Part shown: positions 5,818 to 55,423 of the stretch, piece by piece
How positions within the stretch are numbered: position 1 is the stretch's first letter
Layout: each line of letters opens with the position of its first letter
From: a virus
Taxonomy: Duplodnaviria; Heunggongvirae; Uroviricota; Caudoviricetes
Length of the DNA stretch: 64,000 nt
Virus record (IMG/VR): IMGVR_UViG_3300037423_000296
Location: 11,541-75,540 of that record
Reading direction: 5' to 3' (one strand)
Program-made: the position numbers and the translations under genes
The notes under the pieces: generated by a model
Databases searched by the model: none
The model's input: only the letters and a program-made list of their open reading frames with translations
Told to the model about the DNA's origin: nothing

Positions 5818-6045
5818 ATGACAGATATCGGTCCCAAGACATATGTACTCAAGGGAGGGGCTCATGACGGATTAATTCTAAGGTCAATAAGCCCTATTAA
5901 GTCGATTGCTGTCGATGACAACGCATATGCAGATATGGGCGATGTCGATGAGAACGGATTCGTAGTACTAGAGAATGCAGTCGTCCTTGGATTGTCAAAA
6001 CTCGGCAAAGACCCTCTTGGTGGAGATGGCAAGAAGCTCTTCTGA
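5818..6045 (+). CDS. hypothetical protein
   Basis: ORF track. Confidence 0.4.
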   Translation: MTDIGPKTYVLKGGAHDGLILRSISPIKSIAVDDNAYADMGDVDENGFVVLENAVVLGLSKLGKDPLGGDGKKLF

Positions 6046-6126
6046 TGCGGCGCGAATCCTAGTCAACTAGAATTTCTATTCCCCAAATGTCCAAATTTGT
6101 GTTAGATGTATGATATGGGGTTCCTA

Positions 6127-6147
6127 AATCGAAAATGCTTTCGATTA
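6127..6147. terminator. hairpin aatcgaaaATGCtttcgatt (first of two at convergent junction)
   Basis: inverted repeat read in sequence. Confidence 0.45.
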
Positions 6148-6155
6148 GTGCGCAC

Positions 6156-6192
6156 AGAAAGGCATATAGGAATTGACCCTATATGCCTTTCT
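6156..6192. terminator. bidirectional intrinsic terminator, 14-15 bp perfect stem (agaaaggcatatagg / cctatatgcctttct)
   Basis: perfect inverted repeat between convergent gene blocks. Confidence 0.7.
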
Positions 6193-6295
6193 CCGCAATT
6201 CGCCGGATTACCCTATGACCATTCCAATGAGAACAACAATTCCCATTAGAACGAATGCCAACATAACCGCATAAACCAATAGGGTAATCACTACG

Positions 6296-6547
6296 TCACG
6301 CAATTGCCTTAGCCCAATACAGGACACCGTTGCATTCTTGCTCGAATGGCAAGGGTGAATTGCGCAAGGCAGAATAGATAGGCGCGTATATCTCATCCGC
6401 ACCCTCGCCTATCTCGTCATAGGCCTTATCCCAATTGCTTTCTACCTTGAGCAATAGTTCGGCTATGCATTCGTATGGGTTATCCCTTTTGATGATGGTA
6501 AAAGGCTCATTCCCTACAGCCTGCCATCCTGCCGCGTATCCGCTCAT
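6296..6547 (-). CDS. hypothetical protein
   Basis: ORF track. Confidence 0.4.
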   Translation of the reverse strand: MSGYAAGWQAVGNEPFTIIKRDNPYECIAELLLKVESNWDKAYDEIGEGADEIYAPIYSALRNSPLPFEQECNGVLYWAKAIA

Positions 6548-6651
6548 ATCCCTATCCCTACGGTCACAGCCCTACCCATGCGGGTAGGGCTTTAGCTGTG
6601 TGCCTAAGCCTGTCTAGCTAGGCAGTGTGCCTATGCCTAAAGGCACGGGCT

Positions 6652-6924
6652 CTATGCTGGGATAGGCCTGTAGATATCCACCCTCTCACCCTTGCCTACA
6701 GACACAGGGAAAGGCTGATTGAACGAACCGAAATAGGTCTCTACTTTCTCCCCCGACACGCTAGCTACGCGGGTATAGGTGGCAATGTCGATTCCCCGTA
6801 CGGGCACTAGTACACGCAAGTAGTCACCCTCTCGGATGCTACGCACGGTCCTGTCAGTGAGCCTGTCTACCCTGAGAGTCTGCATATTCGGGAGGGTAAT
6901 CGTCGCCTTAATTGCCTTTGCCAT
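6652..6924 (-). CDS. hypothetical protein (start moved to MAKAIKAT)
   Basis: ORF track, internal ATG chosen. Confidence 0.4.
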   Translation of the reverse strand: MAKAIKATITLPNMQTLRVDRLTDRTVRSIREGDYLRVLVPVRGIDIATYTRVASVSGEKVETYFGSFNQPFPVSVGKGERVDIYRPIPA

Positions 6925-7104
6925 AGTGCTAAATGCCTTTCTAGTGGTTTTTGGTGGGTAATTGGCATTAATTGGGCCAATATCCCTTGTTTTTCGCCAA
7001 AATCGGCGCTTTTTGCGGTGAAAACAGGAACTTGTTCCTGTTTTATTACCCATAGTAACAATGGCAGAATATTGACGTTAGTTAACATTCTGCTAGGTAA
7101 AGCA

Positions 7105-7485
7105 TTAGGCAGGCTCGACTACTGCCAAAGCCAACGGTTGCGTGTCGTCGTCGGTAATGTGCAGCTTGATAACCGCATCCGGATAGTGCTCACGCGGATA
7201 CCTGAAAAGCAGTTCCGATTCGTCTGGGCTTTCGATGGGGTCGGAGTACCAAAGCCACATCTCCGAATCCTCGCCCACATTCGGAGTCAACTTCGAATCC
7301 GGCTCACGGTTGACGTAGTCGAAATCTTGCGTCAGCCAATGTCCCGACACGTACCTATCCACCAAAGCATCTTTGGCAGCTTCAAGGGTGGGGAATGTTT
7401 CTAAGTATTCCCATGGGTAGGACATGGCGTAGTTAGTGCCTCCGTACCATTCGACCCAGACCCGCGATTTTTCGTCAGTGCTCAT
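7105..7485 (-). CDS. hypothetical protein
   Basis: ORF track. Confidence 0.5.
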   Translation of the reverse strand: MSTDEKSRVWVEWYGGTNYAMSYPWEYLETFPTLEAAKDALVDRYVSGHWLTQDFDYVNREPDSKLTPNVGEDSEMWLWYSDPIESPDESELLFRYPREHYPDAVIKLHITDDDTQPLALAVVEPA

Positions 7486-7580
7486 CCTGCCTAGACCTTT
7501 CGTGATTGTCCCTAGATTCGATTCTGAGAGACTTTGGCACAGTGAGGGTAGGTCACCCCACCCTCACCCGCCATGATGCC

Positions 7581-7790
7581 TCAGACTCGCTTGTACGCCG
7601 TCCGTGGATTCGGTAGCGGCTGACTGCCTTCCGGCCACGTGTAAATGTGGTACTGGCCTGCCGGATATTTGTCTTTGCGCAGACCAAAGCGAATGACGTT
7701 ATCGACACTCGCGTAATGCTCGAAAGACTGGTCATCCGTCCCGAGCTTTTCTCGTCCGCTCTCAGTGAGTGCGACGACTAGATAGCGCAT
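7581..7790 (-). CDS. hypothetical protein
   Basis: ORF track. Confidence 0.45.
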   Translation of the reverse strand: MRYLVVALTESGREKLGTDDQSFEHYASVDNVIRFGLRKDKYPAGQYHIYTWPEGSQPLPNPRTAYKRV

Positions 7791-7793
7791 GTC

Positions 7794-8126
7794 TCAATCC
7801 CTTTCCGCATGGTCGTATTCGAACGGGCATCGTGCGGACGGGTAAAGGTCTGGGAATGACTTGCCACACTCTCCGCAAGTCACCACATCGGAGCGGGTAG
7901 GGATTCCCTCGCCTTCCCATGTCTCTACCCATTCGCTTTGGTCACCCTCACTGAAAACAAGGGTGACGCTAAAGCGGTCCTCTCCGAAGTAATCCGGATT
8001 CATTCGGGATTTCAACTCATCCCGAATTGCCACGTAGGCCGATTCCCTTCCACCATCACGGGTAACCCCGGTAACCAGCGCGTGCCAGTTACCGAAGTTG
8101 TCAGCCCATGTCTGCACGCTAGCCAT
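7794..8126 (-). CDS. hypothetical protein (Cys-rich C-terminus)
   Basis: ORF track. Confidence 0.5.
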   Translation of the reverse strand: MASVQTWADNFGNWHALVTGVTRDGGRESAYVAIRDELKSRMNPDYFGEDRFSVTLVFSEGDQSEWVETWEGEGIPTRSDVVTCGECGKSFPDLYPSARCPFEYDHAERD

Positions 8127-8373
8127 TGGTCAATTTCTCCAATCGGTATTCGGTGTCAGTGTCAAGGAAGAAATCCTCACCCTTGACGATGATGTAAACG
8201 CTCGCGGAATTGCCGTAGGCCATGGCGTAAACCCGTCGCCAAATACCCGCGTATTTCAGCATGTAGCGGGTAGGAATCTTCCCTCCGTACCCGCTCACTG
8301 TCTGCCCGCTACGCGGAACATCGGTCACCCTCGCGTCAGTCACAAGCTGACTGTCTGTGCGCTGCACTGTCAT
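8119..8373 (-). CDS. hypothetical protein
   Basis: ORF track. Confidence 0.45.
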   Translation of the reverse strand: MTVQRTDSQLVTDARVTDVPRSGQTVSGYGGKIPTRYMLKYAGIWRRVYAMAYGNSASVYIIVKGEDFFLDTDTEYRLEKLTNG

Positions 8374-8428
8374 GTCTCATCCCTTCCAAGCCTGTAAGGC
8401 ATGGGAAAGCGGTTGCTAAGGCTCTAAC

Positions 8429-8462
8429 GGGTCCGACCCTAGGGAAGGCCTAGGGTCGGACC
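8429..8462. repeat. perfect 14-bp inverted repeat ggtccgaccctagg/cctagggtcggacc (hairpin/operator)
   Basis: read in sequence; intergenic. Confidence 0.5.
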
Positions 8463-8539
8463 TTGAAATCGTCTCTGTGAGCCCTACAGGCTCACTGCCG
8501 TAGGCACAGGCTTACAGGCCTGCCTAGCGGACACAGGCT

Positions 8540-8931
8540 CTACGCGCCTGCCGGACCCCATGACGGAGACTGGTCTACGGTGCCTCCGTCGTCACCCTCA
8601 CCCTCCCAATCGGCGTATTGGTCCTCAAGCTGCCGGTAGCGACGGATGAGGTCCGATTCCGCGTGATAGCGGGTGATGTGGATAAACCCTTGCGAGTCAG
8701 TCATCACGAGAAAGTAACCGACTGCCTCACGCAATTGCTCGTCAGTCATGCCGTAAGCGCTGATGACATCAGCGAATGAGTCTTTGATTCCTCCCGGCCA
8801 TCCGAAGACTTCCGACTCACTGTTGCTAATGCGCGCGAAATGACCGGTAGGGCTTTCAACGTCTCCGTCCGATTCGTTCGCCCACCCTCCGGTAATCATG
8901 GCGTCGAATAGGGCTTCAAGCGGAGTACGCA
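8540..8931 (-). CDS. hypothetical protein (start at MRTPLEALF)
   Basis: ORF track trimmed to internal ATG adjacent to upstream stop. Confidence 0.45.
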
Positions 8932-8945
8932 TGATGTGCTGCCTT

Positions 8946-9347
8946 TCAGTCGTCGTAACGTGCCCAGTACGGGTCACTGGTTGGAAGGGATGCCGCGAGA
9001 TTGCACATCCCTTGATAGCGAGAGGTAGTGGGCGAGTAGGACACGTCAGGGATAACCCATCCGTGAGTTTCCTTTGGTCCACCCTCGCTAGTGGGTACCC
9101 ACCATGCAATAGGCGTGTCATAGGACCACACAACGTATTGCGCTCCGGAGTGAATGAAACGGTCCTGCCATTCGGCAGGCAGTTGCGTGTCTGTCGGCAG
9201 GCTGAGGCTCGCACCCTCGCGGATGTTCTCTCCCCTGTGCGAGAGGGTGGCAGTGCGGAAATTCCGCATCATGTTCACCTCTCGTGCTACCTGCCTACGG
9301 GTGACCTTGCGAGTCATGGCAATTTCCTTTCTTGGCTTTGCCTTCAT
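8946..9347 (-). CDS. hypothetical protein
   Basis: ORF track. Confidence 0.4.
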   Translation of the reverse strand: MKAKPRKEIAMTRKVTRRQVAREVNMMRNFRTATLSHRGENIREGASLSLPTDTQLPAEWQDRFIHSGAQYVVWSYDTPIAWWVPTSEGGPKETHGWVIPDVSYSPTTSRYQGMCNLAASLPTSDPYWARYDD

Positions 9348-9416
9348 TGGTCGCTAGTGAGCACTAGCTTTCGCGTCACCCGCGATTTTTCGCACGGGTG
9401 ACACAAGAGTCATTGC

Positions 9417-9758
9417 TCACTCTGGGCTGTAACCGTCCGCATGTTCCTGCTCCGTGATTTCGTACAGCCTGCCGCTCGAATGGCGCTGTCTCGCAGTAGG
9501 TGGCTTAGGCGGGTTAGTGAACAACTCCGATTCACTCGCCCACCATCCGCACCTACGCTGCAAAGCTTCAAGCGCGCTTGCCTTAGATGCGACTCGCACA
9601 TCACTGCCCGTGGAAAACACGTAGAGCGGATTCCGGTCATCGTCAATCAGCCGGATTTCCCATCCGGCATCGATGACTGTCACGTATCGACGGGTGAAGC
9701 CTGCCTGTATCGACACGCGGAATTCAATCCGGTTGTTAATGGGCTCGAATGTCGCCAT
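9417..9758 (-). CDS. hypothetical protein
   Basis: ORF track. Confidence 0.45.
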   Translation of the reverse strand: MATFEPINNRIEFRVSIQAGFTRRYVTVIDAGWEIRLIDDDRNPLYVFSTGSDVRVASKASALEALQRRCGWWASESELFTNPPKPPTARQRHSSGRLYEITEQEHADGYSPE

Positions 9759-10018
9759 TCCTTACCACCTACTCACTCTCACTAGTGATTCCGTGAGCAA
9801 CGCATTTAGCTTGCGTCCGCTCTCCAATAAATCCCGTGCGAATGCTGCCAATCGCTTGGGGTCGGTTGTGTAAATCCCGAATTCGCTACCGATAAAAGTA
9901 GCGACTCTGATTGTGTCTGTGCGTCGATTCATTCCCTCACCCCTTTGTAAGTTCCCAGCATGAGCAACGCCATGGCAGCGCTAGGCCTGCCGTAAGGCCT
10001 AGCGTCACCAAAGGTCTC

Positions 10019-10321
10019 TCAGTCTGCCGCGTACCAACGTTCCGTCATCGGGTCCAAGACAGGCATGAGAGTGACTGTGTAGTCGTTAATGACTTCATCC
10101 GGCTCATTGCCTAGCACGAAGTAAACGAATCCTTCGTGGTCATCCTTACTGACGTAAAGGTGAGCCGAATCAAGCGCCATGATTGCAGCGATTGCCTCAC
10201 CCTCCTTTGTGACTGGGATGGACTCCTCACCATCCCAGACCGAATCAAGTTCCCACCCTGCCGCACGTAGTGCGCGGATGGTTTGGCGAATACCTGCTTT
10301 GTCGCTAGTCGGCGCTGCCAT
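10019..10321 (-). CDS. hypothetical protein (start at MAAPTSDK)
   Basis: ORF track trimmed. Confidence 0.4.
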   Translation of the reverse strand: MAAPTSDKAGIRQTIRALRAAGWELDSVWDGEESIPVTKEGEAIAAIMALDSAHLYVSKDDHEGFVYFVLGNEPDEVINDYTVTLMPVLDPMTERWYAAD

Positions 10322-10335
10322 GTCAGTAGTTCCAA

Positions 10336-10641
10336 TCAGTGAGTGACGATGAATCGGTAACCAGTGTGAATCACGCGGTAAGCCTTGAGCATGCCGAACC
10401 GACGAAATCGGTAGGCGGTTGACCATGAAAGGTGAGGCAGGGTGAATCTCACGCTATGACGTGTCCACCCTGCCGCATTGTCGTAAGGCCTATCCCATGC
10501 GACGAATGCACGCGGGTAGAACGTGCCTGCCTTTGCATTCATATCTAGGCCGAACGTCACCCGTCCGTACCCGCGAACTTTCGTCTCACAATCCACGATT
10601 AGCGCTTGTGAGAGTTTGGTGGGTTTGTTTCGACGTTGCAT
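10336..10641 (-). CDS. hypothetical protein (101 aa, C-terminal part of the longer R-rich ORF)
   Basis: ATG directly after stop of upstream gene. Confidence 0.4.
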   Translation of the reverse strand: MQRRNKPTKLSQALIVDCETKVRGYGRVTFGLDMNAKAGTFYPRAFVAWDRPYDNAAGWTRHSVRFTLPHLSWSTAYRFRRFGMLKAYRVIHTGYRFIVTH

Positions 10642-10642
10642 G

Positions 10643-11155
10643 TCAGTAACCCGCCATTTCCGCGTATTGGTCATAGACCGTGTTTCTCGGAGTCTCGCAT
10701 TCGTCAGTGCACATATAGATTTCTCTGTGCCTGTATCCCTCTTCCGTGGATTCCGACCATTCCGCTTTGTAGTCGAATTGCGAATACGGGTCACTCTGTA
10801 CCCGCATCGTTCCGTCAATCGCACAGGGTGAGGACAACCAATGCACGTGGAATGACCAAAATCCGAATGCGTCGATTTCTCCGGATTCGGCATCGATGAA
10901 ACGCTCATCGTCGCGACCCCAATAAATCCCGTGGTCACCGTGCCCACCATCACAGTCACGGGATGACTCTTCCCAGTGAATGTGAACGTTGGGGAATTGC
11001 TCGCGGTCAATCTGCAAAGCCTCTGCGTGCCGAATGTCCTCCAATGACTCAGGACCAATCGGGTGACGCCATGTCGGAATTTCGCACTCGCCATCCCAGT
11101 AGGCGAGTTCGTTCCCTGTGCTGGTCGGAGTGCAGTTTTCAAGCGTGTAACTCAT
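10643..11155 (-). CDS. hypothetical protein (171 aa, Cys/His-rich)
   Basis: ORF track trimmed to MSYTLENC; preceded by repeated upstream element A. Confidence 0.5.
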   Translation of the reverse strand: MSYTLENCTPTSTGNELAYWDGECEIPTWRHPIGPESLEDIRHAEALQIDREQFPNVHIHWEESSRDCDGGHGDHGIYWGRDDERFIDAESGEIDAFGFWSFHVHWLSSPCAIDGTMRVQSDPYSQFDYKAEWSESTEEGYRHREIYMCTDECETPRNTVYDQYAEMAGY

Positions 11156-11161
11156 GTCGGC

Positions 11162-11258
11162 ACCTTTCCTGTGTTGGCTGTATGCCGTTGTGCGTGTATC
11201 TGACACGCCATGGCTGAGACAGGGATTGCATGGTCCTGTCTCGCCAAAGTCAGTCAGC
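11162..11258 (-). promoter_or_regulatory. repeated upstream element copy A (cctttcctgtgttggctg ... hairpin gagacagg-N11-cctgtctc ... gtcagtcag)
   Basis: three-copy element with covarying stems. Confidence 0.55.
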
Positions 11259-11432
11259 CTGCCTTCACTCCGAGTCCGGGCGTCCACATACCCTCGCCCA
11301 CCTTGAATTTGAAGCCTGACGAATCGACACAGAGTCGAAATCGCCTGTCAAAGTTCCGAGCATTCGTCAGCGCTTCGAGCAATTGCGCTTGCTCGCGTTC
11401 TGACAATTCGATGATGTTCACTGCACAACCTT

Positions 11433-11738
11433 TCAGATTGTCGGAATGTCGTTAGGGTGCTGCCGTACCCATTCGGCGCAATAGGCAGTGTCCTCCATGC
11501 AATCGACCCATACCGCGTATACCGACCATGCGGATACATGCGGGTAGGCAGCCGCGATAGCGGCTAGGAACAAGGCCTGTGAAGCCTTGTATGTGTCTGT
11601 CCAGCATCCCGAAACGTCATTGCTGGGATGAGCCGAAACGATGTGGTGATGCCGCCTAGCCTCCTCCGCAATCTGCCGCGCCAAATCCTGCCGCGTGACT
11701 CCGAATGACTCCTCTGTCACTGTCTCGAAAACTGCCAT
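11433..11738 (-). CDS. hypothetical protein
   Basis: ORF track trimmed to MAVFETV. Confidence 0.5.
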   Translation of the reverse strand: MAVFETVTEESFGVTRQDLARQIAEEARRHHHIVSAHPSNDVSGCWTDTYKASQALFLAAIAAAYPHVSAWSVYAVWVDCMEDTAYCAEWVRQHPNDIPTI

Positions 11739-11745
11739 GGTGGCT

Positions 11746-11824
11746 TTCCCTTTCCTGTGTTGGCTGAGTTGCCATGGTTGCGGCAGGGAATGCATGTTCC
11801 TGCCGCACCAAAGTCAGTCAGTCA
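11746..11824 (-). promoter_or_regulatory. repeated upstream element copy B (hairpin gcggcagg-N11-cctgccgc)
   Basis: see copy A. Confidence 0.55.
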
Positions 11825-12066
11825 AGGACTCCCCTGCTCCGAAGTTCCGCCACTACGTCATCACGCCGTGCGCGTTGACGCGAGGTGTGCGACTCACCGC
11901 GAGCGCATGACATCTTGTATTCGACAAACTCTCGGACTAATTCCGGAGTCGTCATGACTTGGGGGTCCGCTCCAAGAATGTCTCCGAGCAATGTCCGCAT
12001 CATTCGCATGGTCTCAATTCCTAACGAATCGGAGGGATGGGCTTTCAGTGAGTAGAGCAACCGCAT
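11818..12066 (-). CDS. hypothetical protein
   Basis: ORF track. Confidence 0.4.
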   Translation of the reverse strand: MRLLYSLKAHPSDSLGIETMRMMRTLLGDILGADPQVMTTPELVREFVEYKMSCARGESHTSRQRARRDDVVAELRSRGVLD

Positions 12067-12232
12067 TCGAATAGGGAACGTTTATCCCTACCCGTTCCCA
12101 ATGCGTACCGTTCACGCTGTATGCCGAATAGGTCGCATAAGCGTTGAAACGGTCTGTGAGCTTCAAGCCTGACAAGGCGAGTTGAGTGTCAGTCATGACA
12201 ACCGGTCTCCTACGTAATCGCCCTCGCCCCAA
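12014..12232 (-). CDS. hypothetical protein
   Basis: ORF track; overlaps neighbour. Confidence 0.3.
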   Translation of the reverse strand: MGRGRLRRRPVVMTDTQLALSGLKLTDRFNAYATYSAYSVNGTHWERVGINVPYSNAVALLTESPSLRFVRN

Positions 12233-12399
12233 ACGACACTGTTGTAACCGGGGCCGTATTCCACGTTCACCCGAAGCGCATTCACCCGCACTCCGTAACC
12301 CTCCAAAAGCAGGGTTAGCGCGAGGGAAGTAGCCTCCTCAGCATTCGGCGCTGTAATGCCTCCGCTGAAACCGTCAATCGTAATGTGCATTTCCTGCAT
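12193..12399 (-). CDS. hypothetical protein
   Basis: ORF track trimmed to MQEMHITIDG. Confidence 0.45.
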   Translation of the reverse strand: MQEMHITIDGFSGGITAPNAEEATSLALTLLLEGYGVRVNALRVNVEYGPGYNSVVWGEGDYVGDRLS

Positions 12400-12478
12400 T
12401 CCTTTCCTGTGTTGGCTGAAATGCCATTCGGGCTGACAGCGCATGTCTGTCAGCCCTAGATGACGTGTCAGTCAGTGA
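12398..12478 (-). promoter_or_regulatory. repeated upstream element copy C (hairpin ggctgacag-N7-ctgtcagcc)
   Basis: see copy A. Confidence 0.55.
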
Positions 12479-12743
12479 CCCGCTCCGCATAGGCCAAATC
12501 CTCGCGGTACTGCAAAGCCCATTGGTCACCCGCTGCCTTAACGAACGGATGGAAGTAGGTAGACACGTTGTCATCCGCTGCCACACATCCAACGTTCCAA
12601 CCAACCGTGACCCCATCCGCTTTGAAGCTGAAAGGCTCAGCCACTACGCGGAACAACGTTCCACCTTCGTTCACTACGTCACCCGGTTTCAATTCCGAGT
12701 AGTGCACTCTGTGTGTCGTCATTGCATGTCCTCTCACAGGCAA
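12468..12743 (-). CDS. hypothetical protein
   Basis: ORF track. Confidence 0.5.
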   Translation of the reverse strand: MPVRGHAMTTHRVHYSELKPGDVVNEGGTLFRVVAEPFSFKADGVTVGWNVGCVAADDNVSTYFHPFVKAAGDQWALQYREDLAYAERVTD

Positions 12744-13559
12744 GGCCTACAGACTGTCTGTCTGCCTTGTGAGTGCTAGGCATGCGTCGGAGTCCGCTTG
12801 TTTCGAGTGACTGTCTCCGAGTAGTCACTCACCCTTACCTGTGCCCACATCATCGCGTCGGTGTCTTGCATCCGCGCTAGCGCCATGTCCTAAGGGAACC
12901 TGCCGTGAATAGCATTCCGACCTTGCACGTCAGCCGGAGTATTCCAACGGGCCTTGAGATTCAGTTGTCCTGCTTACCCTGTGCGGGTTGTCCTGCTCTC
13001 CGCGCTTCCCTCGCGTGCCCGATGGGCTGACTTGCGAGTGCCTGTGCTCCGAGCGGAGCGGCTGGCGGGGTGTTTCGGTGTTGCAATGAGGACACTACGT
13101 AGGCCGTAGAGACGCACAAAGTCGTCAAGGCCCATATCCCATCATCGTTATCATTCCGTTATCAAAAACTACGCTCTGTGCATGAAATTAGCGCTCGCTA
13201 TCTACGCAGAGTGAGATTGAGCGTAGACAGTGTGTCAGTCTGTGAGACGGATTGTCTCAGCATTCGAGAAATAACCGACAATGATGTTCAATAAGGCCGA
13301 TTCCGAGCCTGTGCCTATGCAGTGTTTATCTATATGCGCTCCGCACAGGCCTGCCGTGAGCCTGTGAGCCTGCCTAGTGACTGTGCGCCTGTCTCAGCCG
13401 CAGACACTGCCGGTAGGCCTGTCGGCATGCGCTCCGAGACTGCCTGTCAGGTGACTTCGGAGGGTGCCTGTCTGTTGCTACAGGCAACATAGTTACTCAG
13501 AGTGAAAATCGCCTGTAATCGACGTTTAGCCTTCGGTAGGTATGTGACCCTAGCTAGGC

Positions 13560-13990
13560 ACTCTCAATCGCTTAGCAAGCGCTTTCCGAGATAACGCTTT
13601 CCGTAAACAACCTTTCCGATTGAAGCGGTTGTTTGAATCTTGAGCGCAGCACATTCGAACAAATGTTCGTTCGAACAGATTTTCGAAAATTCTCAATTAG
13701 TAAAGGTCCGTTCGTTTAGTAAGTCTGAGGTTACTTAGTAAAGGTTCGTTATTAATCCCGGCGGAATTAGTAAAGAAGCCTTCTTATCTATTCGAACAAG
13801 CGTTCGATTTGGTAAGCGCTTTCCCGGTAAACGCTTTCCGACAACGATTTTCATTCCCAACTGTGGGGGCCGGGGGCCATTTACGAATGGGGCTTACGAA
13901 AGCGGGAGTTTTACGACCGGGACTTTTAAAAGCGGGAGTTACGAATTACGAATTGATTTACAAAAGAGGAAAACCCCGGCTCTTTGCCGG
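13560..13990. repeat. repeat-dense non-coding hub: CGCTTTCCG x4, TTAGTAAAGGTyCGTT x2-3, CGAACA-NN-YGTTCG palindromes x2, TTACGAA x4, AGCGGGAGTT x2
   Basis: direct reading; no ORF >=60 aa from 12780 to 13809. Confidence 0.7.
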
Positions 13991-13998
13991 GGTCTCTC

Positions 13999-14190
13999 TT
14001 AGTATCTGGGAGTCACTGATTTGATTGCACCATCTCCAGCGCCGTGATTTCCGTCAGTCAGTTGCTCAAGAGTTTGCAGCAACGTTTCACGAACGTCATC
14101 CTTGACTGCCTGAGCAGTGTTGTCGATGCCGTAACAAGAAGCCCATTCGTCCTTGTCAACCTCTACAGTGACACTGAAGATTACCTTCAT
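13999..14190 (-). CDS. hypothetical protein
   Basis: ORF track. Confidence 0.45.
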   Translation of the reverse strand: MKVIFSVTVEVDKDEWASCYGIDNTAQAVKDDVRETLLQTLEQLTDGNHGAGDGAIKSVTPRY

Positions 14191-21394: not shown

Positions 21395-21609
21395 TGCCGT
21401 CCTCGCGTAGCCTCGCTGTACGATTCGATGATGGTTTGCGCCTCTTCCAGCCCGCCCAAATGTGCGGACAATCGGGCAATCCTCATTCGGTCAACAAGAG
21501 TGACCTTCTCCTGCGCTTCGAGGGTTCGAACTTTCTTTCGAATTTTCTCGATGCGCGCTTGCAGTGCAGCTTCGGCCACCCCGTCAGGCATGGCGCTCCT
21601 TGTTGGCAC
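21391..21609 (-). CDS. hypothetical protein
   Basis: ORF track. Confidence 0.45.
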   Translation of the reverse strand: MPTRSAMPDGVAEAALQARIEKIRKKVRTLEAQEKVTLVDRMRIARLSAHLGGLEEAQTIIESYSEATRGRH

Positions 21610-31732: not shown

Positions 31733-31978
31733 TCACCGAATGGCGACGGCAAGCTCCCGAGCGGTAGCCTTCGGCAGGCGACCCTTCGACGGAACCTCCA
31801 GACCCAGGAAGTCGCCCAGTTCGCGAGCGGTCTTCGGCTGAGTCACAAGGTAGTCAGCGATGACATCTACGGAAACCCGCCCAATGCTGCCGACAGCCTT
31901 TCCAGCCTCACGAGCGTGCTCACGAGCCGCGTTCGCGATGTTGGAGGTGTCCAGTACGAGAGTAGTGTACTTAGCCAT
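31733..31978 (-). CDS. hypothetical protein
   Basis: ORF track. Confidence 0.5.
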   Translation of the reverse strand: MAKYTTLVLDTSNIANAAREHAREAGKAVGSIGRVSVDVIADYLVTQPKTARELGDFLGLEVPSKGRLPKATARELAVAIR

Positions 31979-32074: not shown

Positions 32075-32380
32075 TTAGTTTTGGGCAGTTGCCGGAAGGT
32101 AGTAGATGTCGTTGCCTACAAGGTAGGCAGCCTGAGCCTCAGTCACAGGCTGACGAGTCTGGACATCCACATACTTACCGATAGAGCAGACGTAACGAAG
32201 CCGGTTCCACCGTGACACCTCCGCGTGAGGACGGATAACCTTCTCCGTCGCCTCTGTCACGACTCCCCGCAACTTCCCATTGATTGCTACGTCCTGTAGA
32301 ACCACAGTCTTTACCTTGACAACCTTACCCTTGATGTTGAGAGCAAGTCCATCACTGGTTTGATTCACTGCACCACGCAT
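32075..32380 (-). CDS. hypothetical protein
   Basis: ORF track; AGGAGGA RBS. Confidence 0.5.
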   Translation of the reverse strand: MRGAVNQTSDGLALNIKGKVVKVKTVVLQDVAINGKLRGVVTEATEKVIRPHAEVSRWNRLRYVCSIGKYVDVQTRQPVTEAQAAYLVGNDIYYLPATAQN

Positions 32381-32424: not shown

Positions 32425-32453
32425 ACACTATCGGTAACTCTCGTGCCTGTCAA
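32425..32453 (-). promoter_or_regulatory. promoter TTGACA-N17-TAGTGT
   Basis: consensus match. Confidence 0.55.
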
Positions 32454-32510
32454 CTCTGTGTGTCTGATTAGTCGCTACTTATCTCGGTGTAATTTCGTAC
32501 TGAGTCTACT

Positions 32511-32684
32511 CGAAAGTGCGTTCGAGTGCAATCTTTCAAACGATTGATTCAATCGAACGTTTGTTCGAATACCTCGCGGGGCTGTCGAACAGGTGTTCGG
32601 TTGCTCGCGGGCACCCGAAACCAATTTTTGCCCTTTACGAAAGGGTCCAAAAGTGTACGGGACTTTTTCGCCCTTTACGAAAGG
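32511..32684. promoter_or_regulatory. regulatory region with CGAAMR-NN-YGTTCG palindromes (32511, 32554, 32586) and two CCCTTTACGAAAGG hairpin motifs 40 bp apart (32631, 32671)
   Basis: direct reading. Confidence 0.6.
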
Positions 32685-32869
32685 TCACCGATTTCGACGG
32701 GACTTAAAATCCGAGATTCGGATTGCTCGTGTGTACGTCGTCGGAATTCCGGCTCCTCGTACTCAATCTCTTCTTCCGGCCAATCAAATTCCACAAGACC
32801 ATACCAGACTTCTGTGCTGGGGTCTACAATTAACTCGACATACATGATGCCTCCCGAGTTAATTATACC

Positions 32870-54712: not shown

Positions 54713-54790
54713 TGTGGAGTCGCGGGGAATTGAACCCCGGTCCTTTGCATTCAATCGTACATCCGAATTACAGCCATCCCTATTCTTTAG
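54713..54790 (-). ncRNA. tRNA-like fragment (perfect T-arm CGGGG-UUCAAUU-CCCCG; no acceptor partner found)
   Basis: manual reading. Confidence 0.3.
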
Positions 54791-55108
54791 ACCTTTACGA
54801 TTGAAGGTGGTCCCAGGATAAGTCCGTCTACCTCTGGCCTTTTAAACTGATGCCGAGCAGTAGGGGGGGTGAACAGTTTGTAGGCGAAGCCACTGTTCGA
54901 TTTCCACCACTGACCTTTCTGTTCCTAGGCAGTCAGCGCCCGATGCTCAATCCTCAGACTGAAGCAAGGTCGTACTCAGCGCAAAGCGCCTCGTACTCTG
55001 CATCAATGTTGTCAGTTGCAGTTATTGTTTGTCAAGTGTTTAACGACTCTCTCAACGAAGTCGGGCTGCGTTCATACTCTCTAGTTCAAAGTCGATACCT
55101 TTCGACCC

Positions 55109-55423
55109 CTAAGGCAAATATACTTTTGCCAAGTTATTGTCTACAAGTAGTTTATTGAGACTTTCAGTACCGGCGAAAACCTCTGCCAGCCAGCGACCGT
55201 ACTTCTCTTTCTTGTAGGTATTGATTGTAACTGTTGGATTCTTTGCAAAGAAGGACTTTACGAAGGCTGTTGCCTCTGCCCATCCTACCTGACCACGCTC
55301 TGGCGTGTCAATTCCATACAATCTGAAAACCGTATCAACTCTAATATCAAATCCCAGGTCTACTGTTAGTTCTACAGTATCACCATCTACCGCTCTAACA
55401 AAGTCTGCCTTGTATTGGTACAT
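55109..55423 (-). CDS. thermonuclease (staphylococcal nuclease-like, SNase domain)
   Basis: VRAVDGDTVEL..RLYGIDTPE..KYGRWLA motifs. Confidence 0.8.
   Translation of the reverse strand: MYQYKADFVRAVDGDTVELTVDLGFDIRVDTVFRLYGIDTPERGQVGWAEATAFVKSFFAKNPTVTINTYKKEKYGRWLAEVFAGTESLNKLLVDNNLAKVYLP

What the first reader, a model, noticed from the sequence alone, without database searches (positions are those of the whole stretch)
13100..13990. Repeat-dense ~0.9 kb non-coding hub: candidate replication origin or master regulatory region
There is no ORF of 60 aa or more between 12780 and 13809. The interval contains CGCTTTCCG x4, TTAGTAAAGGTyCGTT x2-3, TTACGAA x4, AAGCGGGAGTT x2 and two CGAACA-NN-YGTTCG palindromes. 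Its composition is more AT-rich than the flanks. Clustered iterons plus palindromes typify phage origins or regulator-binding hubs.
Basis: seen in the sequence. Interest (0 to 1): 0.7.

Follow-up and report, generated by a model that had tools for sequence, protein, structure and literature searches.

The report
Phage control hub with LexA boxes
A 1.25 kb gene-free stretch near one end of a large, undescribed Streptomyces-type phage genome carries a dense array of protein-binding repeats that includes three textbook binding sites for the host's DNA-damage repressor LexA, suggesting this phage reads the host's damage alarm at a conserved genome landmark.

Summary
12744-13998 has no ORF over 56 aa, and its right part (13541-13970) is the most direct-repeat-dense 430 nt of the 64 kb window. 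The "palindromes" are three full-consensus actinobacterial LexA (SOS) boxes, TCGAAC-N4-GTTCGA. A second triple cluster lies at 32510-32600. Seven such sites occur against 0.16 expected by chance. In an 88%-identical homologous hub, half-sites changed at 1 of 36 positions and spacers at 6 of 12. The "TTACGAA" repeats are copies of a family-wide TCGTAA word. CGCTTTCCG (R1) and TTAGTAAAG (R3) are hub-specific repeats with variable copy number around an AT-rich, easily melted core. The gap is a conserved landmark: relatives (Blueeyedbeauty and three metagenome contigs) have a 1.45-1.5 kb non-coding gap at the same place, about 6-7 kb inside the genome's right end. In all of them, host-type promoters (about 1 per kb) stop at the gap and are absent from the terminal gene block. 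Their arrays use other repeats plus DnaA-type boxes. Best reading: a protein-binding boundary control region gated by host LexA. A replication origin is not excluded. Nothing was shown biochemically.

The parts
13970..13996 (-). Intrinsic terminator (11-bp GC-rich stem followed by a T-run) that ends the upstream minus-strand transcription unit, whose last gene is 13999-14190.
   Evidence: sequence
13880..13958 (-). R4: a cluster of TCGTAA(A) words. On the minus strand TTCGTAA starts at 13952, 13945, 13900 and 13887, and TCGTAAA starts at 13916. They include two 30-nt tandem units (13880-13909 and 13910-13939). This is the family-wide motif that opens both box-bearing gaps here and the equivalent gaps of relatives.
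   Evidence: (D4). The gap copies have only weak self-complementarity.
13865..13878 (.). GC clamp GGGGGCCGGGGGCC between the TCGTAA cluster and the array. Relatives have a comparable G+C-rich run at this position.
13817..13840 (-). R1 pair, read as CGGAAAGCG / CGGGAAAGCG on the minus strand, 15-16 nt apart. L024 has one unit here.
   Evidence: (D1)
13792..13807 (.). LexA-type box A, TCGAACAAGCGTTCGA, a perfect 16-bp palindromic consensus. It is followed on the minus strand by A + TAGATA.
   Evidence: Half-sites are identical in L024 while all 4 spacer bases differ.
13697..13782 (-). R3 array in the AT-rich core: CTTTACTAA x3 on the minus strand (TTAGTAAAG at 13697, 13735, 13767 on the plus strand) plus a degenerate CTTACTAA. 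A 37-nt unit (13725-13761) is absent from three strain variants.
   Evidence: (D3). The duplex-stability minimum is at 13673-13792.
13655..13686 (.). LexA-type boxes B (13671-13686, TCGAACAGATTTTCGA, 1 mismatch) and C (13655-13670, TCGAACAAATGTTCGT, 1 mismatch at the outermost base), abutting head to tail.
   Evidence: Both are present in L001, L003 and L024, and box B is perfect in L024.
13580..13618 (-). R1 triple: CGGAAAGGT, CGGAAAGCG, CGGAAAGCG on the minus strand with a 15-nt period. Nearly invariant between the window and L024.
   Evidence: (D1)
13495..13560 (-). Conserved island CCTAGCTAGGG...CTAAACGTCGATTACAGGCGATTTTCAC. This is the only sequence shared with the Blueeyedbeauty and L025 gaps, where it also lies directly after the repeat array.
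13307..13516 (-). Run of seven ACAGGC words (four as GACAGGC) on the coding strand. These are -35-like words with no -10 partner.
   Evidence: 7 observed, 0.15 expected; no promoter
12744..13140 (-). GC-rich (59%) non-coding stretch upstream of the first terminal-block gene (12468-12743). A variant contig (L003) carries unrelated sequence here, so it is a separate, replaceable module.
32510..32600 (.). Second cluster of three LexA-type boxes (32510-32525, 32553-32568, 32585-32600). It lies upstream of the 101-aa gene at 32075-32380 and the Lsr2-like gene at 31733-31978. Box 32510-32525 fills the 17-nt spacer of a weak promoter, TTGCAC-N17-TAGACT (32531 to 32503 on the minus strand).
32626..32705 (-). 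Two 40-nt tandem units AAGTCCCG-N16-TTCGTAAAGGGC that head the second gap. The 18-mer GACCCTTTCGTAAAGGGC is identical at the equivalent site of Blueeyedbeauty.
32425..32453 (-). Consensus host-type promoter TTGACA-N17-TAGTGT downstream of the second box cluster.

Best explanation
The locus is the head of a conserved non-coding boundary region in a large Streptomyces-type siphophage. It is a composite protein-binding array that includes three operators for the host SOS repressor LexA.

Shown from sequence:
- Transcription of the upstream, host-promoter-rich gene train ends at an intrinsic terminator (13996 to 13970 on the minus strand).
- Next comes a cluster of the family's TCGTAA words.
- Next comes a roughly symmetric array: R1 x2, LexA box, AT-rich R3 x3-4, LexA box x2, R1 x3.
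- Next comes about 800 nt with no ORF and no recognisable sigma-70-type promoter.
- Next comes a 6.7 kb terminal block of small genes that also lacks such promoters.

Inferred mechanism:
- In an undamaged host, LexA dimers occupy the three consensus boxes on either side of the easily melted core.
- Unidentified, probably phage-encoded, proteins occupy R1 and R3.
- Together they keep closed whatever process starts here. Most likely that process is entry of transcription into the promoterless terminal block, by read-through or from a non-canonical promoter.
- When RecA-stimulated self-cleavage removes LexA during the SOS response, the gate opens.
- The same signal acts on the second triple-box cluster in front of the operon that contains the Lsr2-like gene.

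Confidence that the palindromes are real LexA-type operators is about 0.8. Confidence in the gating role at this boundary is lower (the figure given).
For: Match to the LexA site:
- S. venezuelae LexA binds the 16-bp motif tCGAAC-N4-GNNCGa, shown by ChIP-seq and SPR (PMC9380542).
- The window has 7 sites with at most 1 mismatch to TCGAAC-N4-GTTCGA against 0.16 expected. Six of them lie in two intergenic clusters.

Selection pattern:
- Against the 88%-identical hub of L024, half-sites changed at 1 of 36 positions and N4 spacers at 6 of 12 (Fisher p = 4.6e-4).
- The one substitution in box B between the window and L001/L003 falls in the spacer.
- Box number stays at three while R1 and R3 copy numbers vary.

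Host and phage proteins:
- The window encodes WhiB, Lsr2-like and SsgA proteins, which point to an actinomycete host.
- No LexA-like or HTH domain was found in 142 ORFs, so a phage-encoded look-alike binder is not evident.

Boundary role:
- TTGACN-N16-19-TANNNT promoters on the coding strand number 36 to the right of the gap, 0 in the gap and 0 in the terminal block.
- The same pattern holds in Blueeyedbeauty (28/0/0), L025 (26/0/0) and L154.
- A terminator lies at the gap's head.

Conserved landmark:
- Gaps of 1.45-1.5 kb sit at the same position in Blueeyedbeauty, L025 and L154.
- The Blueeyedbeauty and L025 gaps are 72% identical end to end.
- A shared sequence island follows the array in both gap types.

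Precedent: GIL01 uses host LexA at pairs of boxes in two phage promoters (PMC4551915, PMC6182141).
Against: - No sigma-70-type promoter overlaps the gap-1 boxes. So the classical operator-over-promoter arrangement is absent here and only weakly present at 32510-32525.
- The boxes in the second cluster lie 60-170 nt upstream of the strong promoter.
- Relatives with the same boundary architecture have no SOS boxes: Blueeyedbeauty, L025, L154 and Mildred21. The LexA input is therefore a lineage-specific addition, not the core function of the region.
- The host is unknown and no binding data exist.
- How the terminal block is transcribed is unknown.
- The R1 and R3 binders are hypothetical.
Confidence: 0.45

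Rival explanations
1. Replication origin. R1 and R3 are iterons for a phage initiator, the AT-rich R3 core is the unwinding element, and the LexA boxes (DnaA boxes in related lineages) are host-factor sites that modulate initiation.
For: - The direct repeats are locus-specific and occur nowhere else in the window.
- It has the highest direct-repeat density in the window.
- The core at 13673-13792 is among the 3-4 least stable 80-120-nt segments of the 64 kb.
- Repeat copy number is plastic, as is usual for iterons.
- The positionally equivalent arrays in Blueeyedbeauty, L025 and L154 combine lineage-specific repeats with 2-4 perfect DnaA-type 9-mers. That is the classical iteron + DnaA-box layout of theta-type origins (own knowledge).
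- An unrelated phage contig (L012) also places four LexA-type boxes next to tandem 22-nt iterons and an AT-rich stretch.
Against: - There is no DnaA-type box in this window's gap.
- Repeat spacings (15 nt; 32 and 38 nt) are not in helical phase.
- No recognisable initiator, helicase or primase gene is adjacent.
- There is no skew signal.
- Other AT-rich segments in the window are equally unstable.
- This reading does not by itself explain the second box cluster in a plain promoter region.
Confidence: 0.25
2. The palindromes are bound by a phage-encoded protein that happens to share, or has copied, the LexA specificity. The hub would then be an autonomous phage operator or iteron array with no SOS input.
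For: - Related lineages carry different palindromes at the same place (GTTGAA-TG-TTCAAC type). This suggests arrays that co-evolve with a phage protein.
- GIL01 encodes a LexA homologue, gp6 (PMC6182141).
- Only about half of the genome is in the window.
Against: - The match to the host consensus is exact over all 12 specified bases and has the right 4-nt spacer.
- No LexA_DNA_bind or other HTH domain was found among 142 ORFs.
- Blueeyedbeauty's counterpart of the second gap does not carry that phage's own array motifs, so the two loci do not co-vary there.
Confidence: 0.12
3. LexA sink. Six or seven consensus-strength boxes per genome, multiplied by replication, titrate LexA and switch on the host SOS regulon without DNA damage, to the phage's benefit.
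For: - All the boxes are at or near full consensus, so better than most chromosomal sites listed in PMC9380542.
- They are clustered and mostly do not overlap promoters.
- Clusters of 3-4 consensus boxes recur in other viral contigs.
Against: - This is purely inferential.
- Both clusters sit at the head of transcription units directly after the TCGTAA words, which points to local control.
- Close relatives do without them.
Confidence: 0.08
4. T5-iss-like site: a host-factor-binding untranslated repeat region that pauses or anchors the genome during DNA entry and separates a terminal segment from the rest.
For: - It is a roughly 1.2-1.5 kb untranslated repeat region a few kb (about 5%) inside a genome end. 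It is better conserved than the neighbouring genes and carries DnaA boxes in the Blueeyedbeauty-type lineages.
- T5 Repeat Region 3 is 1.2 kb, untranslated, highly conserved and has 8 DnaA boxes (bioRxiv 10.1101/866236).
Against: - The terminal block has no host-type promoters in any lineage, unlike genes that must be expressed first by unmodified host RNA polymerase.
- The region is not inside a long terminal repeat: Blueeyedbeauty's repeat is about 0.8 kb.
- This window's gap has no DnaA boxes.
- Which end enters first is unknown.
Confidence: 0.06
5. Non-functional spacer: decayed genes or chance low-complexity sequence.
For: There is no Rfam match and only weak RNA structure. One module (12744-13140) is replaceable.
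Against: - Repeat density exceeds all shuffles.
- Box enrichment is about 40-fold.
- Half-sites are conserved against spacers.
- The gap's position is conserved across lineages, and the Blueeyedbeauty and L025 gaps are 72% identical.
Confidence: 0.02

Closest known systems
Host-LexA-controlled promoters of the temperate Bacillus tectivirus GIL01 (dinBox1/1b at P1, dinBox2/3 at P3; PMC4551915, PMC6182141)
   Same: A phage genome carries multiple consensus host LexA boxes. They are grouped in pairs or triplets at two separate control regions, and no classical CI-type repressor is evident.
   Different: - GIL01 is a 15 kb temperate linear plasmid-prophage of a Firmicute. Here the genome is a roughly 130 kb-class, tRNA-rich relative of virulent Streptomyces phages.
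- GIL01's boxes overlap or directly follow the promoter elements. Here most boxes have no overlapping promoter.
- No homologue of gp7 or gp6 was identified.
Chromosomal SOS boxes of Streptomyces venezuelae and other Actinobacteria (tCGAAC-N4-GNNCGa; PMC9380542)
   Same: Same 16-bp palindrome, spacer length and half-site sequence. Clusters of boxes also occur at some host genes, for example at the M. tuberculosis lexA region (PMC8151990).
   Different: - The sites here are in a phage and are closer to the ideal palindrome than most listed chromosomal sites.
- They are embedded in an array of other repeats.
- They are not in front of DNA-repair genes.
T5 'injection stop signal' / Repeat Region 3 (bioRxiv 10.1101/866236)
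   Same: A roughly 1.2 kb untranslated, repeat- and palindrome-dense region a few kb inside a genome end. It is better conserved than the adjacent small genes and carries host-factor boxes (DnaA boxes in T5 and in the Blueeyedbeauty-type relatives).
   Different: - It is not inside a long terminal repeat.
- The terminal block lacks host promoters.
- This lineage carries LexA boxes, not DnaA boxes.
- There is no homologous sequence and no evidence for two-step injection.
Iteron-type origins (lambda ori, P1 oriR, SPP1 oriL; own knowledge)
   Same: Several classes of locus-specific direct repeats flank an AT-rich, low-stability core. Copy number varies, and host-factor boxes sit next to the repeats.
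   Different: - No helical phasing.
- No adjacent or enclosing initiator gene.
- No DnaA box in this window.
- Nothing is known about replication in this phage family.
Non-coding gap of Streptomyces phage Blueeyedbeauty (NC_048720, 123070-124574) and of metagenome relatives L025 and L154
   Same: - Same position in the gene train, about 6-7 kb before the right genome end.
- Same order of elements: TCGTAA-word pair, G+C-rich run, repeat array, shared island (CCTAGG...GCGAWTTTCAC), long leader, then a promoterless terminal block with hairpin-bearing spacers.
   Different: - The array motifs are unrelated (GTTGAAC and TGTACCA...TACAAAG repeats plus DnaA-type 9-mers).
- There are no LexA boxes.
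- Apart from the island there is no alignable sequence.

Membership tests
LexA operator (actinobacterial SOS box) | 16-bp palindrome tCGAAC-N4-GNNCGa | tested here: met
   One perfect and two one-mismatch 16-mers at 13655-13807, and the same again at 32510-32600. Motif taken from PMC9380542.
LexA operator (actinobacterial SOS box) | Occurrence above chance | tested here: met
   7 sites observed against 0.16 +/- 0.37 expected in 100 dinucleotide shuffles. Perfect CGAAC-N4-GTTCG occurs only in the two clusters.
LexA operator (actinobacterial SOS box) | Half-sites constrained and spacer free among homologous loci | tested here: met
   Window against L024: 1 of 36 half-site positions changed and 6 of 12 spacer positions changed, p = 4.6e-4. 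This rests on only one diverged homolog plus close variants.
LexA operator (actinobacterial SOS box) | Overlaps or abuts the -35/-10 elements of the regulated promoter | tested here: inconclusive
   Gap 1 has no sigma-70-type promoter within reach. Box A is followed by TAGATA, which lacks the final T. In gap 2, box 32510-32525 fills the spacer of TTGCAC-N17-TAGACT, whose -35 is weak. The other boxes lie 60-170 nt upstream of the consensus promoter.
LexA operator (actinobacterial SOS box) | Bound by LexA and derepressed on DNA damage | not testable with these tools
   Needs EMSA, SPR or ChIP, and RNA-seq with and without mitomycin C.
LexA operator (actinobacterial SOS box) | The host encodes a LexA with this specificity | not testable with these tools
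   The host is unknown (metagenome source). An actinomycete host is inferred from the phage's WhiB, Lsr2-like and SsgA genes and from Streptomyces-phage relatives.
Iteron-type replication origin | Three or more direct repeats specific to the locus | tested here: met
   R1 x5 and R3 x3-4 are found only here. Repeat density ranks 1 of 1272.
Iteron-type replication origin | Repeats in helical phase (multiples of about 10.5-11 bp) | tested here: not met
   R1 period is 15 nt. R3 spacings are 38 and 32 nt, and one unit is lost in variants.
Iteron-type replication origin | Adjacent AT-rich unwinding element | tested here: inconclusive
   13673-13792 is the 3rd-4th least stable 80-120-nt segment of 64 kb, about 3 SD from the mean, but it is not unique.
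Iteron-type replication origin | DnaA boxes or another host initiator site | tested here: not met
   No TTRTCCACA with at most 1 mismatch occurs between 10837 and 14751, and the window-wide count is at chance. Such boxes are present in the equivalent gaps of Blueeyedbeauty, L025 and L154.
Iteron-type replication origin | Initiator or replication gene adjacent to or enclosing the repeats | tested here: not met
   The flanking genes have no Pfam or PHROG replication annotation. No replication initiator was recognised among the 142 ORFs scanned.
Iteron-type replication origin | Mapped initiation or a skew turning point | tested here: inconclusive
   Cumulative GC skew turns only at the strand switch near 6000. 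Skew tracks transcription, and half of the genome is missing.
T5 iss-type untranslated repeat region | Untranslated repeat or palindrome region of about 1.2 kb a few kb inside a genome end | tested here: met
   The gap is 1255 nt and lies about 6.7 kb from the strand-convergence point. That point is the presumed genome end, judged by synteny with Blueeyedbeauty.
T5 iss-type untranslated repeat region | Located within a long terminal repeat | tested here: not met
   Blueeyedbeauty's terminal repeat is about 0.8 kb and does not reach its gap. The window's own repeat could not be determined.
T5 iss-type untranslated repeat region | Ordered array of DnaA boxes | tested here: not met
   None in this window's gap.
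T5 iss-type untranslated repeat region | Terminal segment carries genes expressed first from host promoters | tested here: not met
   Zero consensus promoters in the terminal block of the window, Blueeyedbeauty, L025 and L154.
Known structured RNA (Rfam) | Covariance-model match at or near the gathering score | tested here: not met
   The best match scored 25.6 bits against a threshold of 55, over the terminator. Nothing was found in the relatives' gaps. Fold z-scores are -2.1, -1.9 and -0.2.

The most novel reading that the evidence does not exclude
A large phage of the lytic type, related to the Streptomyces Stanwilliamsviridae phages, has recruited the host SOS repressor as a direct sensor. 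Consensus LexA operators were inserted into two control regions. One is a family-conserved boundary hub in front of the promoterless terminal gene block. The other lies in front of the operon with the Lsr2-like gene. Host DNA damage would therefore reprogramme the infection. Alternatively, the replicating phage would drain LexA and trigger SOS itself. In sister lineages DnaA-type boxes sit in the same hub. That would make the hub a general docking platform for host global DNA-binding proteins.
Probability: 0.3. Interest if true: 0.7.

Novelty: new variant of a known kind. Interest (0 to 1): 0.55.

Why it matters
Direct use of host LexA by phages is documented for a few small temperate elements such as GIL01. 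It has not been reported, as far as the searched literature shows, for the large tRNA-rich Streptomyces phages that are treated as strictly lytic.

If the boxes work, they give a simple, testable link between host DNA damage (including damage from the antibiotics that Streptomyces themselves make) and the programme of a large phage.

The analysis also defines a conserved, previously undescribed genome landmark in this phage family. It is a 1.25-1.5 kb non-coding boundary where host-type promoters stop, and it carries lineage-specific binding-site arrays (LexA boxes here, DnaA-type boxes elsewhere). This is the obvious place to look for the origin of replication or the switch to a second transcription regime.

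Tried and rejected
- **DNA searches of deposited phages.** Megablast and blastn of the gap and of 25 kb of the window against INPHARED gave no match. The phage is not deposited, and only protein-level relatives exist.
- **IMG/VR with flanking proteins.** Scans with the two flanking proteins found no relatives. The upstream gene has no homologs beyond its own cluster.
- **Terminal-repeat boundary.** I considered this because Mildred21-type phages have 10.8 kb terminal repeats bounded by a 1.3 kb gap. I rejected it because the closer relative Blueeyedbeauty has only a ~0.8 kb repeat that does not reach its gap.
- **SOS boxes as a family trait.** Rejected: there are none in Mildred21, Blueeyedbeauty, L025, L154 or L155.
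- **DnaA boxes in this gap.** None found.
- **Sigma-70-type promoter in the gap.** None found, even with relaxed criteria.
- **Structured RNA.** No Rfam hit and no strand-specific fold signal.
- **Hidden protein gene.** Indels of 1, 2, 10 and 37-38 nt among variants rule out coding constraint.
- **Mobile element.** There is no second copy in the window.
- **'TTACGAA units are hairpin loops.'** This holds for the dispersed copies after genes (z = -3 to -6) but not for the copies in the gap heads (z about 0), so I downgraded it to 'conserved word'.
- **Phage-encoded LexA homologue.** None detected among 142 ORFs. The other half of the genome was not examined.
- **Context of box clusters in other viral contigs.** The neighbouring proteins in L006 and L012 have no Pfam annotation.
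- **Gap 2 variants.** L029-L032 are nearly identical to the window, so they are uninformative.
Full report
**Setting**

The window is part of a large phage genome. It has 32 tRNA genes and a tmRNA. Small genes lie almost all on the minus strand from about 6000 to 64000, and on the plus strand from 1 to about 6000. It matches no deposited phage at the DNA level.

At the protein level its relatives are the ~130 kb Streptomyces siphophages of Stanwilliamsviridae. rIIA is 36% identical to Mildred21 and Gilson-type phages. A SprT-like protease is 70% identical to that of Blueeyedbeauty. WhiB, Lsr2-like and SsgA genes point to a sporulating actinomycete host.

Gene order (rIIA, rIIB, phosphoesterase..., SprT) and a ThyX gene at 1075-1785 show two things. 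The window is the reverse complement of the Blueeyedbeauty map, and it crosses the genome termini near position 6000. The finding therefore lies about 7 kb inside the right end of the genome.

**The observation**

Between the genes 13999-14190 (-) and 12468-12743 (-) there are 1255 nt whose longest internal ORF is 56 aa. Strain variants differ there by indels of 1, 2, 10 and 37-38 nt, which excludes a coding constraint.

All the listed motifs are present, with small corrections:
- CGCTTTCCG has 3 exact copies plus 2 variants.
- There is a third, abutting palindrome.

The stretch 13541-13970 is the most direct-repeat-dense 430 nt of the whole window: rank 1 of 1272 and above all 500 shuffles. 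Only this part is AT-rich, at 42% GC. The rest of the gap is 52-59% GC.

**Anatomy on the coding (minus) strand**

1. An intrinsic terminator at 13996 to 13970.
2. A cluster of TCGTAA(A) words.
3. A G+C-rich run.
4. R1 (CGGAAAGCG) x2.
5. Box A.
6. R3 (CTTTACTAA) x3-4, in a core that is among the 3-4 least stable 80-120-nt segments of the window.
7. Boxes B and C, head to tail.
8. R1 x3.
9. A short conserved island.
10. Seven ACAGGC words (0.15 expected).
11. A GC-rich stretch that another variant (L003) replaces with unrelated sequence.

There is no sigma-70-type promoter anywhere in the gap, even with relaxed criteria. There is no Rfam match and no strand-specific RNA structure.

**The palindromes are LexA-type boxes**

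They read TCGAAC-N4-GTTCGA. The LexA site of Streptomyces venezuelae, defined by ChIP-seq and SPR, is the 16-bp tCGAAC-N4-GNNCGa (PMC9380542).

The window holds seven sites with at most one mismatch to the full palindrome, against 0.16 expected. Six form two clusters:
- 13655-13807, inside the finding.
- 32510-32600, in another intergenic gap, upstream of a 101-aa gene and the Lsr2-like gene.

A metagenome contig carries the homologous hub at 88% identity (L024, found through the SprT-like anchor, whose protein is 84% identical). All three boxes are present there as perfect or near-perfect 16-mers. Half-sites differ from the window at 1 of 36 positions and spacers at 6 of 12 (p = 4.6e-4).

Box number is constant, while R1 and R3 copy numbers vary between variants. 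This is the pattern expected of a site read by a symmetric dimer that ignores the central four bases. No LexA-like or other HTH domain was found among 142 ORFs of the window, so host LexA is the simplest binder. Binding itself is inferred, not shown.

**The other repeats**

TTACGAA, read as TTCGTAA on the coding strand, is not a local iteron. TCGTAA(A) is enriched on the coding strand throughout this phage and its relatives. It opens, as a pair or trio about 30-40 nt apart, both box-bearing gaps here and the equivalent gaps of Blueeyedbeauty, L025 and L154. At several sites after genes it is the loop of a strong hairpin (z = -3 to -6). The copies at the gap heads are only weakly self-complementary, so its role is open.

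R1 and R3 occur nowhere else in the window and remain unassigned.

**A conserved landmark**

Blueeyedbeauty, L025 and L154 each have a 1.45-1.5 kb non-coding gap in the same gene train. In Blueeyedbeauty, the only complete genome among them, it lies about 6 kb before the right end. The Blueeyedbeauty and L025 gaps are 72% identical over their whole length, although the SprT proteins of these phages are only 60-70% identical to the window's.

Their order of elements matches the window's: TCGTAA pair, G+C-rich run, repeat array, shared island (CCTAGG...GCGAWTTTCAC), long leader. Their array motifs are different. They have GTTGAAC-type and TGTACCA...TACAAAG repeats plus 2-4 perfect DnaA-type 9-mers, and no SOS boxes.

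In every lineage, consensus TTGACN-N16-19-TANNNT promoters occur at 0.7-1.4 per kb on the coding strand up to the gap. Not one lies in the gap or in the terminal block behind it: window 36/0/0, Blueeyedbeauty 28/0/0, L025 26/0/0, and L154 the same.

The terminal blocks share a layout of small genes separated by ~80-100-nt spacers that hold strong hairpins. The gap is thus the boundary between a host-promoter-driven early region and a terminal block that must be expressed differently.

**Interpretation**

The best-supported reading is a composite protein-binding control region at this boundary. In this lineage it has acquired three host LexA operators, and a parallel triple-box insertion lies in front of the Lsr2-like operon.

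The documented precedent is GIL01, where host LexA acts at pairs of boxes in two phage promoters (PMC4551915, PMC6182141).

The weak points are these:
- The gap-1 boxes overlap no recognisable promoter.
- The mode of transcription of the terminal block is unknown.
- Sister lineages manage without SOS boxes.

**Rivals**

A replication origin remains a serious rival:
- In favour: locus-specific repeats with variable copy number, a low-stability core, and DnaA-type boxes in the equivalent arrays of relatives.
- Against: the features that would confirm it (helical phasing, a DnaA box here, an adjacent initiator gene, a skew signal) were tested and either not met or uninformative.

The T5 injection-stop region matches in size, position, conservation and host-factor boxes (bioRxiv 10.1101/866236). 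However, the terminal block lacks host promoters and the region is not inside a long terminal repeat.

A LexA-titration role is possible but purely speculative.

**Verdict**

It is a new variant of known kinds of element (phage LexA operators; iteron-like control hubs), placed at a conserved and undescribed landmark of a poorly studied phage family. Function is inferred from sequence only.

Noticed in passing
window 11163-11257, 11749-11821, 12401-12460: Three copies of a ~100-nt intergenic element lie in the terminal gene block. Each has a strong hairpin followed by the identical 17-mer CCTTTCCTGTGTTGGCT, which covers the ribosome-binding region just before a start codon. Blueeyedbeauty's terminal block has analogous ~80-nt hairpin spacers. 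This could mean RNA processing or antitermination sites in one long transcript.
   Followed up: partly
window 14428-63791 versus 6000-13998 (minus strand): All 36 consensus TTGACN-N16-19-TANNNT promoters on the coding strand lie to the right of the gap, and none lies in the gap or the 6.7 kb terminal block. The same split is seen in three relatives, so there are two transcription regimes.
   Followed up: yes
window 5950-6250: This is the convergence point of plus- and minus-strand genes. It has the highest inverted-repeat density of the window. By synteny with Blueeyedbeauty it is the presumed position of the physical genome ends and short terminal repeat. The ends themselves were not mapped.
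   Followed up: partly
L012 1540-2290 (IMG/VR 3300031890_000033) and L010: An unrelated 49% GC viral contig has four consensus LexA-type boxes in a row. They are preceded by 3-4 tandem 22-nt repeats (GATCAGAACTTAGTTCAGCTAACG) and an AT-rich stretch. This is the same kind of boxes-plus-iterons hub in a different phage.
   Followed up: partly
L005-L009, L011, L013, L015-L018, L020 (IMG/VR contigs of 65-68 kb, about 65% GC): A family of high-GC viral contigs carries clusters of 3-4 consensus TCGAAC-N4-GTTCGA boxes arranged as abutting pairs. The neighbouring proteins have no Pfam annotation.
   Followed up: partly
L027 25202 and 25457; L025 18386, 18398 and 18651; L154 17035-17056 and 17238: Perfect DnaA-type 9-mers (TGTGGATAA / TTATCCACA) are conserved in the equivalent non-coding gaps of Blueeyedbeauty and two metagenome relatives. 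L154 has a tight cluster of three.
   Followed up: partly
window 13307-13516 and window-wide: GACAGGC is strongly strand-biased, with 18 copies on the coding strand and 1 on the other. It forms the tail of several TTGACAGGC early promoters. Four copies 24-30 nt apart sit in the gap with no -10 element.
   Followed up: partly
window 13275-13290 and 13838-13853: The 16-mer CCGACAAYGATKTTCA occurs twice in the gap (TGAAnATCnTTGTCGG on the coding strand). One copy is at the head of the array and is conserved in L024. Its function is unknown.
   Followed up: no
L003 (JGI 3300037312) against window near 13140: This variant contig shares 13140-13998 with the window but carries unrelated sequence beyond. 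There is a mosaic junction inside the non-coding gap.
   Followed up: partly
window 21526-21541: A lone one-mismatch LexA-type box (TCGAACTTTCTTTCGA) lies outside the two clusters. It is also present in variant L001. Its context was not examined.
   Followed up: no
window 18170-62166: There are 32 tRNA genes and a tmRNA (54714-55109), all on the coding strand and interspersed with small genes, as in the Streptomyces Stanwilliamsviridae phages.
   Followed up: no
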